DNA from: Octopus sinensis
Taxonomy: Eukaryota
DNA length: 64,000 nucleotides
Assembly (NCBI RefSeq): GCF_006345805.1
Contig: NC_043004.1
Coordinates: 26,660,001-26,724,000, forward strand
Reading direction: 5' to 3'
In this document: piece by piece, positions 46,642 to 49,598 of the stretch
How the letters are laid out: every line of letters begins with the position of its first letter
How positions within the stretch are numbered: the stretch's first letter is position 1
Made by a program: the position numbers

Positions 46642-49566
46642 CTACAGCATCACCTACTATACATCTGGTCTTTTCTAAGGATGTGGATTGTACTTTTCAG
46701 CACAATCTTTTGAATTTCTCTGAGACATGGTTCTCCTGGGATGTTACCTCAATGTGTCTGACATCCCCTTTTTATCATACATAGGACACCTACAATAACA
46801 GGAACAGTTCTCACTTTAAGATACCACATCTTTTGCTTTTCAATTTCCAGGTCCTTACATTTACTTAACTTGTCAAATTCCTTTACAGATATATTTTTAT
46901 CAGTAGGAACATTTAACATTTTCTTCCCTGTCTTTAATGACTATATCTGGTCATTTATCCTGGATCATTCTGTCGGTGTTGACTTGAAAATTCCAGAGGA
47001 TAGTGACATTTTTACCTTCAAAAAGTGGCTGAGGATGATATTCATACTAGTAAGCTGTAAACAGGTTTTGTAGTGTTTACATATTTTCCAATGTAAATAC
47101 TATCCTACCCTATCATGACGATTTTTGCATTAATTTGGTGTTAGCACAGGACATCCCAAGACGAGATTGTCTGTTGTTGGGGGTTACATGGATAGATCAA
47201 AACAGTTTGATTCAGAATCCTTGGTACTCTGGGTTTCAAGCATGTGGCTAGTCTTCACCCAGTGGAGTCTGAATGAAAGTTTAATTAAAGAGAGTCAATG
47301 ATTATTACTGGACATTAGTTTGTGATTGGTCAAGAAAGGTCACACAATATTGATGTATTTCAGTGACAGCAGTTAGAGGGAAAATTCTGCGTGATGAAGA
47401 GGAAATCGACCGTGTAGTGGTATATTCTGTTGAATGCTTAGCCATAAATAGAACTGAAATCAGTAAAAAGTTTTATATAAAAATTATAAATATTATTGGG
47501 ATCAATAGTGTTATTTTCCAGCTAAATAAAGCACGATAAAGGTAAAATTACAAATATAAAATAGTGGTGCAACAAAGCACTAATGTTTGCTGGAAGTAGC
47601 AGTCGATAACAGTATGGCGCTATGTAATGCTTCACTGAATATATACTGGCAAAACTTTTTATAATCATTACCTGCACACATCTTTGCCAGTATATATTCA
47701 GTGAAGCTTTATCAACTGCTATTTCCAGCAAACATTGGTGCCTTGTTGCACCACTATTTTATATTTCTAACTCTACCTTTACTGTGCTTTATTTAGTTGG
47801 AAAATAATACTATTGTATCCCAATAATATTTATAATTTATATATATATATATAGGCTGTGTGGCTGTGAGCTTGCTTACCAAACACATGGTTCCGGGTTC
47901 AGTCCCACTGTGTGGCACCTTGGGCAAGTGTCTTCTACTATAACCTCAGGCTGACCAAAGCCTTGTGAGTGGATTTGGTAGACAGAGACTGAAAGAAGCC
48001 TGTTGTATATATATGTATGTGTATATGTTTGTGTGTCTGTGTTTGTCCCACCAGCATCGCTTGACAACTGATGCTGGTGTGTTTACATCCCCATAACTTA
48101 GTGGTTCAGTAAAAGAGACCAATAGAATAAGTACTAGGCTTATAAAGAATAAGTCCTGGGGTCGATTTGCTTGACTAAAGGCAGTGCTCTAGCATGGCCA
48201 CAGTCAAATGACTGAAACAAGTAAAATAGTAAAAGAGATATCTGTTAAAATGAGATGTCAGTATTATTTTCATTTTTGTGTAATTTAGATAACAATTCAT
48301 TCACCACACCCTTTATATATATATATATATATATAATTTCAACAATTGAGGGTAAAATAATTAATTATTAATCAATTTCACCAAGTATTCAGTATGTAAA
48401 GGGACCATTATAGGCGAATTCAAAATATTACATTATATATAAGGGCTTAGTAAAATAAATTACTTTGCCACATACTGAACTCATTAGAAATAGCAGCTAA
48501 AGAAATTTCTTCAGCTATTTCTAATACTTAAAGAAGATCTCCCTCAGATAGTGTTTGCCTAAACTAACTCACAAAAGTATGGGGGAAAAAACATTAAAAA
48601 ATCAAGTGCAAAGGTTATTTGAGAATGTACGTTTCTAGATTAGTCAATTCGACATTTCTTTCTTCAGCTCAGAATTCCTTGAATCGGATTTGGGAACACT
48701 GAAAGTCGGGAGCATACCCTTTCGGCTTCTAATCACCTCTAGAATTCTGCTCGAACTAAAAGTGCTATCAAATTCGAATATGCAAGCGAAGAATTTCTGC
48801 TCTCCCCTTTCCACCAGCGTGGGTTAAAATTGACAAACACCATGTATTAACGCAGAATTTAGCAGAGAGAGATGAATTATAATTTCAACAATTGAGGGTA
48901 AAATAATTAATTATTAATCAATTTCACCAAGTATTCAGTATGTAAAGGGACCATTATAGGCGAATTCAAAATATTACATATATATAAGGGCTTAGTAAAA
49001 TAAATTACTTTGCCTTATATATAATGTAATATTTTGAATTCGCCTATAATGGTCCCTTTACATACTGAATACTTGGTGAAATTGATTAATAATTAATTAT
49101 TTTACCCTCAATTGTTGAAATTATAATTCATCTCTCTCTGCTAAATTCTGCGTTAATACATGGTGTTTGTCAATTTTAACCCACGCTGGTGGAAAGGGGA
49201 GAGCAGAAATTCTTCGCTTGCATATTCGAATTTGATAGCACTTTTAGTTCGAGCAGAATTCTAGAGGTGATTAGAAGCCGAAAGGGTATGCTCCCGACTT
49301 TCAGTGTTCCCAAATCCGATTCAAGGAATTCTGAGCTGAAGAAAGAAATGTCGAATTGACTAATCTAGAAACGTACGTTCTCAAATAACCTTTGCACTTG
49401 ATTTTTTAATGTTTTTTCCCCCATACTTTTGTGAGTTAGTTTAGGCAAACACTATCTGAGGGAGATCTTCTTTAAGTATTAGAAATAGCTGAAGAAATTT
49501 CTTTAGCTGCTATTTCTAATGAGTTCAGTATGTGGCAAAGTAATTTATTTTACTAAGCCCTTATAT

Positions 49567-49598
<32 letters not shown>

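What the first reader, a model, noticed from the sequence alone, without database searches (positions are those of the whole stretch)
48332..49569. Young 1.2-kb palindrome built from a circularly permuted, hammerhead-carrying 546-bp unit (retrozyme-like)
Seen: a non-coding 546-bp unit present as 1.25 tandem copies (48332-49014), then via a 2-nt CC microhomology as one inverted copy (49013-49569) that starts in a different register. The arms are about 557 bp, nearly identical, with a spacer of about 22 nt, and (TA)n lies on both outer sides. Each arm has one type I HHR pointing outward. The right copy has an intact core with a palindromic acgtacgt stem III; the left copy has a single CpG-type change. 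Known: animal retrozymes and PLE pseudo-LTRs carry such minimal HHRs, PLE insertions form partial-tandem plus inverted termini, and palindromic stem III loops are proposed to allow dimeric cleavage. Inference: two registers of one unit are what reverse transcription around a circular or multimeric RNA would give, so this may be a recently active non-autonomous ribozyme retroelement mobilised by PLE RT.
Basis: partly seen in the sequence, partly recalled or inferred. Interest (0 to 1): 0.9.

Follow-up and report, generated by a model that had tools for sequence, protein, structure and literature searches.

The report
Inverted retroelement insertion with hammerhead-like motif
A 1.2-kb near-perfect palindrome sitting in a TA microsatellite looks like one recent, complex insertion of a short non-coding retroelement carrying a hammerhead-ribozyme-like motif, a known kind of animal mobile element, although cleavage by the ribozyme is not shown.

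Summary
The geometry is real. There is a 546-bp non-coding unit: 1.25 tandem copies at 48332-49014, a 2-nt CC junction, then an inverted 557-bp copy at 49013-49569. The spacer is 23 nt, and the arms differ by one CpG-type substitution and one 1-nt indel. (TA)n lies on both outer sides.

The "hammerhead" is only partly confirmed. The full catalytic core, a 4-bp helix I and an 8-nt palindromic helix III are present. The motif is the only match to a relaxed descriptor in the window, and about 3e-4 matches per unit are expected by chance. However, helix II is weak, 10.1/11.1 is an A·A mismatch, and no Rfam hammerhead model scores it.

The motif-bearing strand folds far better than shuffles (z -4.8), while the opposite strand does not (z -1.5).

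Three features match published insertion signatures of Penelope-like elements (PLEs): the partial tandem, the head-to-head inverted copy and the (TA)n target. A relic of a PLE with a C-terminal endonuclease lies at 5814-6357.

Best reading (confidence 0.5): one young retrozyme-type, non-autonomous insertion, copied from a multimeric or circular RNA with both target strands acting as primers.

It is a new member of a known kind. Copy number, self-cleavage and circular RNA could not be tested.

The parts
48314..48336 (.). Left flanking (TA)n microsatellite; the outer end of the left array merges into it.
   Evidence: Sequence read; inverted TA matches (I14, I19).
48332..48877 (-). Full 546-bp unit (copy 1). 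The sense strand, meaning the motif-bearing strand, is the minus strand.
   Evidence: D1 (spacing 546); (546/546 self hit plus a 138-nt second copy).
48878..49014 (-). Partial second tandem copy (137 nt, lacking one T in its TA run). This is the 5' end of the left array in sense orientation.
   Evidence: (D1, D3).
48611..48680 (-). Left hammerhead-like motif, mutated. G16.2 has become A (T48626 on the + strand, a CpG-to-TpG change). The mirrored cut site lies between 48624 and 48623.
   Evidence: CTGAAGA at 48661-48667 on the minus strand; the substitution is shown; this copy fails the descriptor.
48990..49012 (.). 23-nt spacer of the palindrome; it is a continuation of the unit in the left array.
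49013..49014 (.). CC microhomology at the head-to-head junction.
   Evidence: (homology to either partner ends at these two bases).
49013..49569 (+). Inverted 557-bp copy (1.02 units), sense on the + strand. Its outer (3') end lies in the unit's own TATATA, 102 nt short of the register in which the left array ends.
   Evidence: (I1, I2).
49323..49392 (+). Right hammerhead-like motif, type I topology. It has CUGAAGA at 49336-49342, helix II at 49343-49367, GAAA at 49368-49371, the helix III palindrome at 49371-49378 and U17 at 49379. The predicted cut is after 49379.
   Evidence: No Rfam hammerhead hit.
49474..49525 (+). Strong internal hairpin of the unit (mirrored at 48478-48529), 44 nt upstream of the right arm's 3' end.
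   Evidence: hairpin-type miRNA model hits, 22 bits, below gathering; structure.
49562..49598 (.). Right flanking (TA)19 microsatellite.
5814..6357 (+). Context only. [quoted passage not shown] It shows that PLEs live in this genome; it is not linked to the palindrome.

Best explanation
The locus is one recent, complex retro-insertion of a short (546-nt) non-coding, non-autonomous retroelement. The element is of the animal 'non-LTR retrozyme' / PLE-dependent type, and it landed in a (TA)n microsatellite.

Inferred mechanism:
1. A structured RNA carrying a minimal type I hammerhead-like motif existed as a multimer or a circle.
2. A PLE-type RT/endonuclease cut the AT-rich target.
3. Both target strands served as primers, probably annealing their TA ends to UAUA stretches of the RNA at two different places, 102 nt apart.
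4. Two cDNAs were made, of 683 and 557 nt. Each is longer than one unit, and their 3' ends face outward.
5. Their 5' ends were joined head to head at a 2-nt CC microhomology.

Shown: the final architecture, the motif, the strand-specific RNA structure, the youth of the copies, and the presence of PLE remnants in the same window.

Inferred: the RNA template, the priming of both strands, the helper enzyme, and any ribozyme activity.

The palindromic helix III suggests that, if the motif is active, it cleaves as a double hammerhead between two copies or with protein help, as described for other minimal animal hammerheads.

The locus itself is a dead end for monomer release, because it has only one motif per strand.
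For: Architecture:
- The partial tandem (1.25 units), the inverted copy joined 5' end to 5' end, and (TA)n on both sides are confirmed.
- This matches the published description of PLE insertions: 5' truncation, partial tandems, an inverted 5'-truncated copy at the 5' end, and a microsatellite/(TA)n target bias that hides target-site duplications (PMC8557442, passages).

Template: both arms are longer than 546 nt, end in two registers, and cross the proposed cleavage site uncut.

Motif:
- It is the only match in 64 kb on both strands, under each of four descriptor settings.
- In 400 simulated windows, 12 matches had helix I >=4 and helix II >=3. That is 0.03 per window, or 2.6e-4 per unit.
- No simulated match combined this with a palindrome of 8 nt or more (no count was printed for that class).
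- The palindrome supports a dimer: cofold energy -27.2 against 2 x -6.3 kcal/mol, and the 8-nt duplex is -9.8.

RNA structure:
- The sense strand has z -4.84 (0 of 100 shuffles as good) and the antisense strand z -1.52 (7 of 100).
- Circular folds give z -3.96 (0 of 60) against -1.12 (6 of 60).
- Retrozyme RNAs are described as highly self-paired and of low GC (PMC7229834 passages). The unit's GC content is 34%.

Youth: there are 2 differences in 557 nt, and CpG o/e is 0.70 against 0.38 for the window.

Helper family present:
- There is an RT fragment with a GIY-YIG C-terminus at 5814-6357.
- Its best named relative is an Octopus bimaculoides protein at 83% identity.
- 3 of 4 relatives scanned have RVT_1 followed by a C-terminal GIY-YIG domain.

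Hammerhead_1 loci are reported in a cephalopod genome: 235 in the giant squid (PMC6962438 passage).
Against: - No Rfam hammerhead family scores the motif, even on 86 nt.
- The 10.1-11.1 pair, described as highly conserved G-C in PLE hammerheads (PMC4209133 passage), is A·A here. With a Watson-Crick pair required there, the descriptor finds 0 matches.
- Helix II is interrupted, and the monomeric hammerhead fold (-4.5 kcal/mol) is not the minimum (-6.3). The local fold is weaker than 197 of 200 shuffles.
- My descriptor was written after seeing the candidate, so its chance estimate is optimistic.
- No other copy of the unit could be examined, so there is no covariation, no copy number and no second insertion.
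- The unit is longer than the 170-400 nt first described for animal retrozymes (PMC7229834). It does lie inside the 51-972 bp range of a 2026 preprint.
- The two outer ends differ by 102 nt, not by the 30-40-bp 'tail' typical of PLEs.
- The only PLE remnant found in the window is old and broken and lies 42 kb away. It shares no DNA similarity with the unit.
- Every feature of the final DNA could also arise by DNA-level rearrangement.
Confidence: 0.5

Rival explanations
1. A DNA-level rearrangement. A small pre-existing tandem array of the 546-bp unit in a (TA)n tract underwent a fold-back or template-switch inverted duplication during replication or break repair. The switches occurred at the CC and TA microhomologies. 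The unit may or may not be retroelement-derived.
For: - There is 2-nt microhomology at the centre and TA-rich sequence at both outer ends.
- The arms are almost identical.
- Nothing in the DNA requires an RNA step.
- The outer-end offset of 102 nt does not match the published 30-40-bp PLE tail.
Against: - It needs at least two precisely placed switches.
- It does not explain why the architecture reproduces the PLE signature, with 5' ends inward and 3' ends in (TA)n.
- It does not explain why the right arm carries the copy-1 version of the TA run rather than that of the adjacent partial copy.
- It does not account for the hammerhead-like motif or the strand-specific RNA structure, although those could belong to the unit independently.
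Confidence: 0.2
2. The element is real and mobile, but the hammerhead-like motif is a chance or decayed resemblance with no catalytic role. On this reading the unit is a non-ribozyme, non-autonomous PLE dependant or another short retroposon. Published Naiad-type PLEs target (TA)n and lack canonical hammerheads, though some carry only the core.
For: - No Rfam hammerhead model hits the motif.
- The 10.1/11.1 position is A·A and helix II is weak.
- The local fold is weaker than shuffles.
- Naiads prefer (TA)n, and some have a hammerhead core that fits no stem/loop descriptor (PMC8557442 passages).
- Hammerhead mutants did not affect PLE insertion in vitro (PMC11167929).
Against: - The chance expectation is about 3e-4 per unit.
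- No simulated match had an 8-nt palindromic helix III.
- A palindromic 15.2-16.2/loop 3 is a listed hallmark of real PLE hammerheads.
- Naiads are described as long inactive in cephalopods, while this insertion is young.
Confidence: 0.15
3. An assembly artefact. A chimeric palindromic read or a mis-join created the inverted arm.
For: Complex PLE insertions are said to cause assembly problems (PMC8557442 passage). Near-perfect palindromes are a known artefact class (my own knowledge, not from a call).
Against: - The palindrome is internal, with different unique flanks on each side. The right flank 49600-50200 is unique, and the left flank is a different dispersed repeat.
- The arms are asymmetric by 102 nt plus the spacer.
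- The arms differ by a CpG transition and an indel.
Confidence: 0.08
4. A foldback-type DNA transposon or long-TIR MITE, with arms built of tandem sub-repeats, inserted at TA.
For: The element has long, nearly identical inverted arms with unequal repeat content and TA-rich flanks. Mariner-like remnants lie in the window.
Against: - The 'sub-repeat' is 546 bp and present only 1.25 times.
- The unit has no terminal inverted repeat of its own (one search lists none at its ends).
- There is no discrete target-site duplication.
- The RNA structure is strand-specific.
Confidence: 0.04

Closest known systems
Metazoan non-LTR retrozymes (Cervera and de la Pena 2020, PMC7229834; Li et al. 2026 preprint, 10.64898/2026.07.22.740005)
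   Same: - It is a non-coding, low-GC repeat with a type I hammerhead-like motif and head-to-tail repetition.
- The motif-polarity RNA is highly self-paired.
- PLEs coexist in the genome.
- The proposed origin is reverse transcription of multimeric or circular RNA.
   Different: - There are only 1.25 tandem copies plus an inverted copy, so there is never more than one motif per strand.
- The unit is 546 nt, against 170-400 nt in the 2020 paper (but inside the 51-972 bp range of the preprint).
- Helix II is defective, and there is no recognisable loop 1/loop 2 contact.
- No expression or circularity data exist.
Penelope-like element insertions and pLTRs (Craig et al. 2021, PMC8557442; Frangieh et al. 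2024, PMC11167929)
   Same: - A partial tandem, an inverted 5'-truncated copy abutting the 5' end, and an AT-rich/(TA)n target with no discernible target-site duplication.
- Priming from both target strands and from internal RNA sites has been shown in vitro.
- A minimal hammerhead with a palindromic helix III.
   Different: - No RT/EN ORF is attached, and the period of 546 bp excludes a simple 5'-truncated autonomous copy.
- The offset between the two outer ends is 102 nt, not 30-40 bp.
- Both outer ends sit in TA microhomology, whereas the anole PLE primes at a non-homologous site.
Minimal / dimer-dependent type I hammerheads (newt satellite 2, axolotl HHR_Amex1, PLE min-HHRs; PMC4209133, PMC7229834)
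   Same: - The complete CUGANGA...GAAA...UH core.
- A very short helix III (A-U plus one C-G) capped by a palindromic tetraloop, which would extend to 8 bp in a dimer.
- A short helix I.
   Different: - A·A at 10.1/11.1 instead of the conserved G-C (axolotl Amex2 has a U·U there).
- A long, interrupted, AU-rich helix II.
- Not detected by Rfam hammerhead models.
L1 twin-priming inversions
   Same: Two cDNAs are primed from the two ends of one staggered break and joined internally by microhomology, with their 3' ends facing outward.
   Different: Here the two cDNAs overlap completely because the template is repetitive or circular. The result is a palindrome rather than an inversion of one segment. 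There is also no poly(A).

Membership tests
Hammerhead ribozyme, type I (minimal animal/PLE variant) | Conserved core C3-U4-G5-A6-N7-G8-A9 ... G12-A13-A14 ... A15.1-U16.1, H17 | tested here: met
   CUGAAGA at 49336-49342, GAAA at 49368-49371, U16.1 at 49378 and U17 at 49379.
Hammerhead ribozyme, type I (minimal animal/PLE variant) | Helix I pairs the bases 3' of the cut with the bases 5' of C3, and is open-ended (type I) | tested here: met
   4 contiguous pairs, 49332-49335 with 49380-49383, plus distal pairs.
Hammerhead ribozyme, type I (minimal animal/PLE variant) | A stable helix II with the conserved G10.1-C11.1 pair | tested here: not met
   10.1/11.1 is A·A. Helix II is 3 bp + a 3x3 loop + 3 bp. 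The descriptor finds 0 matches when a Watson-Crick pair is required. The feature is taken from a PMC4209133 passage.
Hammerhead ribozyme, type I (minimal animal/PLE variant) | Short helix III with palindromic 15.2-16.2/loop 3, allowing a double hammerhead | tested here: met
   ACGUACGU at 49371-49378. The duplex energy is -9.8 kcal/mol, and the dimer cofold is -27.2 against -12.6 for two monomers.
Hammerhead ribozyme, type I (minimal animal/PLE variant) | Recognition by curated covariance models (Rfam hammerhead families) | tested here: not met
   No hammerhead hit at gathering score, at E<=10 on 1.5 kb or on 86 nt.
Hammerhead ribozyme, type I (minimal animal/PLE variant) | Covariation or conservation of helices among family copies | not testable with these tools
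   There is no other copy in the window, and no eukaryotic genome collection was available.
Hammerhead ribozyme, type I (minimal animal/PLE variant) | Site-specific self-cleavage | not testable with these tools
   This needs in vitro transcription; the expected cut is after 49379.
Metazoan non-LTR retrozyme | Tandem repeats (dimer or more), each monomer carrying a hammerhead in the same polarity | tested here: not met
   At this locus there are 1.25 copies on one strand and 1.02 on the other, with one motif per strand. Other loci could not be examined.
Metazoan non-LTR retrozyme | Non-coding, low GC (<45-50%), a few hundred bp | tested here: met
   The longest frame is 62 aa, GC is 34% and the unit is 546 bp. 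This is above the 170-400 nt of PMC7229834 and inside the 51-972 bp of the 2026 preprint.
Metazoan non-LTR retrozyme | Stable, highly self-paired RNA of the ribozyme polarity | tested here: met
   Sense z -4.84 (0 of 100 shuffles) against antisense -1.52 (7 of 100). In the circular fold, 63% of bases are paired and z is -3.96.
Metazoan non-LTR retrozyme | Expressed as linear and circular monomer RNA | not testable with these tools
   No transcriptome data were available.
Metazoan non-LTR retrozyme | Coexistence with autonomous PLEs in the genome | tested here: inconclusive
   A broken PLE relic lies at 5814-6357. No intact PLE was found in the window, and the rest of the genome was not seen.
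PLE-type insertion architecture | A partial tandem plus an inverted 5'-truncated copy at the 5' end | tested here: met
   the definition comes from PMC8557442 passages.
PLE-type insertion architecture | AT-rich or microsatellite target, with the target-site duplication obscured | tested here: met
   (TA)n lies on both sides.
PLE-type insertion architecture | A 30-40-bp 'tail' at one end | tested here: not met
   The two outer ends differ by 102 nt, and no 30-40-bp extension is recognisable.
PLE-type insertion architecture | An RT plus GIY-YIG ORF within the element (autonomous PLE or pLTR) | tested here: not met
   The unit has no such ORF. tblastn with 5 PLE proteins hits only 5814-6357. If PLE-dependent at all, the element is therefore non-autonomous.

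The most novel reading that the evidence does not exclude
This would be a recently active, roughly 546-nt hammerhead-bearing circular-RNA retroelement of a cephalopod. On this reading the palindromic insertion is a natural footprint of a PLE enzyme priming on both strands of a (TA)n target and copying more than once around an RNA circle. That would be in vivo support for the both-strand extension so far seen only in vitro. It would also be a case in which a hammerhead with a mismatched 10.1/11.1 position works only as a dimer or with protein help.
Probability: 0.25. Interest if true: 0.55.

Novelty: new member of a known kind. Interest (0 to 1): 0.35.

Why it matters
If the reading holds, the locus is a clean, young example of how short ribozyme-bearing retroelements are pasted into animal genomes. 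Two cDNAs, each longer than one unit, lie in two registers, joined head to head in a TA microsatellite. That pattern bears on two open points. The first is whether PLE enzymes use both target strands in vivo. The second is whether the template of animal retrozymes is a circle or a multimer. It would also add a cephalopod family with an unusual helix II. As it stands, this is one locus with a non-canonical motif and no functional data, so it is of interest mainly to transposon and ribozyme specialists.

Tried and rejected
- **Rfam scans.** Three scans were run: the whole window at gathering score, 1.5 kb at E<=10 and 86 nt at E<=10. None gave a hammerhead. The hits were hairpin-type miRNA models matching the palindrome centre and the internal hairpin, all below gathering score, and I read them as artefacts of the inverted repeat.
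- **More copies of the unit in the window.** blastn (word size 9, E<=1e-3) found none outside the locus. The flanks gave no paralogous empty site. The left flank is a dispersed SINE-like repeat and the right flank is unique.
- **A PLE close to the palindrome.** tblastn with 5 PLE-type proteins and 3 LINE-type proteins was run. PLE matches lie only at 5814-6357. Next to the palindrome there are only LINE remnants (45170-46309, 46671-47177).
- **A hammerhead near the PLE relic.** The descriptor found none downstream of it. I read 6300-7400 and there is no CUGANGA match there.
- **Pfam on 10 further window ORFs.** Only HTH-type hits below or near cut-off appeared, for 42521-42793. Nothing was found for the rest.
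- **The GIY-YIG-like fragment at 11182-11430.** The Atlas gave only a lead: one cluster has GIY-YIG on 15% of its members, with a score of 0.93. A search for longer relatives found none. I therefore do not claim a second PLE.
- **Readings rejected.**
  - *Helitron:* there are no TC...CTRR ends, judged by eye.
  - *Simple 5'-truncated autonomous PLE or pLTR:* the 546-bp period would then need the same truncation point twice.
- **Organism.** The only pointer is the best named relative of a transposon protein (Octopus bimaculoides, 83% identity), so 'probably an octopod' is a weak inference.
- **Not checked.**
  - Genome contigs holds only prokaryotes and was not scanned.
  - search_dna_similar (phages, plasmids, E. 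coli) was not used.
  - Copy number, other registers, polymorphism and read support therefore stayed unchecked.
  - Supplements of papers were closed. The hammerhead descriptors and figures in the supplements of PMC4209133 and PMC7229834 may bear on the family assignment, as may supplementary file S1 of PMC8557442, which lists cephalopod PLE families and 'HHR_core' cases.
- **In print or not.** Searches found no paper in the held library that describes a retrozyme in an octopus. One search found 8 papers holding hammerhead, ribozyme and octopus together. I read passages of PMC8557442 and PMC6962438, and the rest I saw only as a listing. This does not show that none exists.
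Full report
**Observation**

I read 48000-50000 and ran repeat finding on 47500-50500.

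- A 546-bp unit is present as a full copy (48332-48877) followed by a 137-nt partial copy (48878-49014). D1 pairs 48332-48433 with 48878-48979 at 100% identity and spacing 546.
- An inverted copy occupies 49013-49569. I1 pairs 48434-48979 with 49024-49569, and I2 pairs 48332-48444 with 49013-49125.
- A global alignment of the 556-nt left arm with the reverse complement of the 557-nt right arm shows exactly two differences. One is T48626 against C in the reverse-complemented right arm (G49377 on the right-arm + strand). The other is a 1-nt indel in the unit's TA run.
- The spacer is 23 nt (48990-49012), and the junction shares only CC.
- (TA)n flanks both sides: 48314-48336 and 49562-49598, 19 copies.
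- The unit has no other copy in the window; all 6 blastn HSPs lie at the locus.
- It has no frame longer than 62 aa.

**The hammerhead-like motif**

On the + strand of the right arm the full catalytic core is present:

- CUGAAGA at 49336-49342 and GAAA at 49368-49371.
- A15.1-U16.1 and one C-G pair closing a GUAC loop, so that 49371-49378 is an 8-nt palindrome.
- U17 at 49379.
- Four helix I pairs (49332-49335 with 49380-49383), plus distal pairs.

The mirrored copy is on the minus strand of the left arm (core at 48661-48667). It carries the single substitution, which turns G16.2 into A and is a CpG-to-TpG change on the + strand.

Evidence against a canonical ribozyme:

- Rfam gives no hammerhead hit at gathering score in the window (0 matches of any family).
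- There is none among 20 matches at E<=10 in 1.5 kb, and none on the 86 nt around the motif, where the only match is a 9-bit snoRNA hit.
- Positions 10.1/11.1 are A·A. Helix II is 3 bp, a 3x3 internal loop, then 3 bp.
- The hammerhead-consistent fold (-4.5 kcal/mol) is not the minimum (-6.3).
- The 81-nt region folds worse than 197 of 200 shuffles.
- The G10.1-C11.1 pair is described as highly conserved in PLE hammerheads (PMC4209133, passages).

Evidence for a real ribozyme relative:

- A relaxed descriptor finds this site as the only match in the 64-kb window on both strands, under each of four settings. It finds none when a Watson-Crick 10.1-11.1 pair is demanded.
- The results for 400 order-2 Markov windows were:

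| Requirement | Matches in 400 windows |
|---|---|
| helix I >=3 | 233 |
| helix I >=4 | 92 |
| helix I >=4 and helix II >=3 | 12 |
| the above plus a palindrome of 8 nt or more | none (no count printed) |

- Twelve matches correspond to 0.03 per window, or 2.6e-4 per 546-nt unit.
- The descriptor was written after seeing the site, so these figures flatter it. Even so, a palindromic 15.2-16.2/loop 3 is one of the four features the 2014 paper lists as marks of genuine PLE hammerheads.
- Two copies cofold at -27.2 kcal/mol against -12.6 for two monomers, through that palindrome.

I conclude that the motif is probably hammerhead-derived. It is non-canonical, and at best it would depend on a dimer or on protein.

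**RNA structure of the unit**

| Fold | Strand | Energy (kcal/mol) | z | Shuffles as good |
|---|---|---|---|---|
| linear 546 nt | motif-bearing | -141.5 | -4.84 | 0 of 100 |
| linear 546 nt | opposite | -112.3 | -1.52 | 7 of 100 |
| circular, permuted to the predicted cut site | motif-bearing | -135.4 | -3.96 | 0 of 60 |
| circular, permuted to the predicted cut site | opposite | -106.1 | -1.12 | 6 of 60 |

In the circular fold, 63% of the bases on the motif-bearing strand are paired.

This strand-specific excess of structure is independent of the motif and points to the same polarity. It matches the 'highly self-paired', low-GC RNAs described for animal retrozymes (PMC7229834, passages). 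The unit's GC content is 34%.

**Architecture read in the motif polarity**

- The right arm runs 5' to 3' from 49013 to 49569. The left array runs from 49014 to 48332.
- The two 5' ends therefore meet at the CC junction, and both 3' ends abut (TA)n.
- The arms are 557 and 683 nt. Each is longer than one unit, each crosses the predicted cleavage site, and they end in registers 102 nt apart. Both ends sit in TA-rich stretches of the unit.
- A linear monomer cannot give this. It needs either a multimeric or circular template, or DNA-level copying of a tandem array.
- The 546-bp period also argues against a mere 5'-truncated autonomous PLE.

**Comparison with the literature**

- Craig et al. 2021 (PMC8557442, passages) describe PLE insertions as 5'-truncated and organised in partial tandems. 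[quoted passage not shown] They are biased to microsatellites ((TA)n for Naiads), so that target-site duplications cannot be discerned. Non-autonomous derivatives make head-to-tail multicopy insertions.
- Frangieh et al. 2024 (PMC11167929; outline and the whole Main text) show in vitro that an anole PLE protein prefers AT-rich DNA and cleaves and extends both target strands. It initiates at internal sites of a multi-copy RNA and does not need hammerhead cleavage for insertion. Its hammerhead cleaves only with protein present.
- Cervera and de la Pena 2020 propose circular RNAs as templates giving tandem cDNA copies, with PLEs as the likely helpers.
- A 2026 preprint derives animal retrozymes from PLE pLTRs and reports consensus lengths of 51-972 bp (abstract and Results part 1).
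- The giant squid genome paper reports 235 Hammerhead_1 loci (PMC6962438, passage).

The locus fits this body of work closely, with three exceptions. There is no 30-40-bp tail. The apparent priming sites lie in TA microhomology. Helix II is defective.

**Context in the window**

- A 5'-truncated, internally deleted PLE relic lies at 5814-6357 on the + strand. It has RT motif C and the following region, then the C-terminal end of a GIY-YIG domain.
- Among 41 candidates, 27 proteins matched the 80-aa fragment at E<=0.001. The best named one is an Octopus bimaculoides protein at 83% identity.
- 3 of 4 relatives scanned have RVT_1 followed by a C-terminal GIY-YIG domain.
- Beside the palindrome there are only LINE remnants: the ORF at 45158-46441 on the minus strand (zf-RVT hit below cut-off; 461 relatives) and a second fragment at 46671-47177. 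There is also a dispersed SINE-like repeat.
- The unit's CpG o/e is 0.70 against 0.38 for the window, as expected for young DNA.

**Verdict**

The best explanation (confidence 0.5) is a single recent retrozyme-type, non-autonomous insertion made by a PLE-like mechanism. It was made from a multimeric or circular RNA, with both target strands priming.

| Rival | Confidence |
|---|---|
| DNA-level fold-back duplication of a small array | 0.2 |
| A real element whose hammerhead resemblance is non-functional | 0.15 |
| Assembly artefact | 0.08 |
| Foldback DNA transposon | 0.04 |

This is a new member of a known kind, of moderate interest.

Noticed in passing
window 5814-6357 (+): [quoted passage not shown] RT residues of about 396-510 of full-length relatives are followed directly by residues of about 700-772, so there is an internal deletion, and there is a stop codon after motif C. 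The best named relative is an Octopus bimaculoides protein (83% identity). No hammerhead-like motif was found downstream.
   Followed up: partly
window 45158-46441 (-), 46671-47177 (-), 63781-63996 (-): Three fragments of one widespread metazoan LINE family (RVT_1 / zf-RVT relatives at about 60-65% identity; one unnamed record at 98%). The first is a 427-aa open frame that begins after an AAT-type low-complexity run.
   Followed up: partly
window 47854-48241; also 7451-7683, 8244-8432, 19775-20003, 27335-27730, 27814-28142, 28729-29136, 37690-37836, 60071-60516: A dispersed SINE-like repeat (about 67-85% identity between copies) present at nine or more places in the window. One copy ends about 90 bp left of the palindrome.
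   Followed up: no
window 47503-47609 / 47709-47815 and 47625-47653 / 47683-47711: Nested inverted repeats (107-nt arms at 90% and 29-nt arms at 97%), forming a MITE-like or hairpin structure 0.5 kb left of the finding.
   Followed up: no
window 42521-42793 (-), 53164-53469 (-): Short frames that look like Tc1/mariner transposase pieces. The first has an HTH-type Pfam hit; the second has a DDE-region-like sequence, judged by eye only, with no Pfam hit.
   Followed up: partly
window 11182-11430 (+): An 83-aa frame with a GIY-YIG-like look. The Atlas lead was weak (GIY-YIG on 15% of one cluster, score 0.93), and no longer relatives were found. It remains unresolved.
   Followed up: partly
window 40481-40978; 2314-2595; 44007-44588; 32110-32300; 5043-5133: Large simple-sequence arrays: 12-bp minisatellites (41.5 and 23.7 copies), a CCT-rich array with 33- and 63-bp superperiods, (ACT)64 and (TA)46. 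They produce many spurious long ORFs.
   Followed up: no
whole window: CTGANGA occurs 43 times against 26.8 expected (0 of 100 shuffles reach 43). Four of these lie in the palindrome; the rest were not examined for repeat membership.
   Followed up: no
window 48332-48877 v whole window: CpG observed/expected is 0.70 in the unit and 0.38 in the window. This is consistent with a methylated, CpG-depleted genome and a young insertion.
   Followed up: yes
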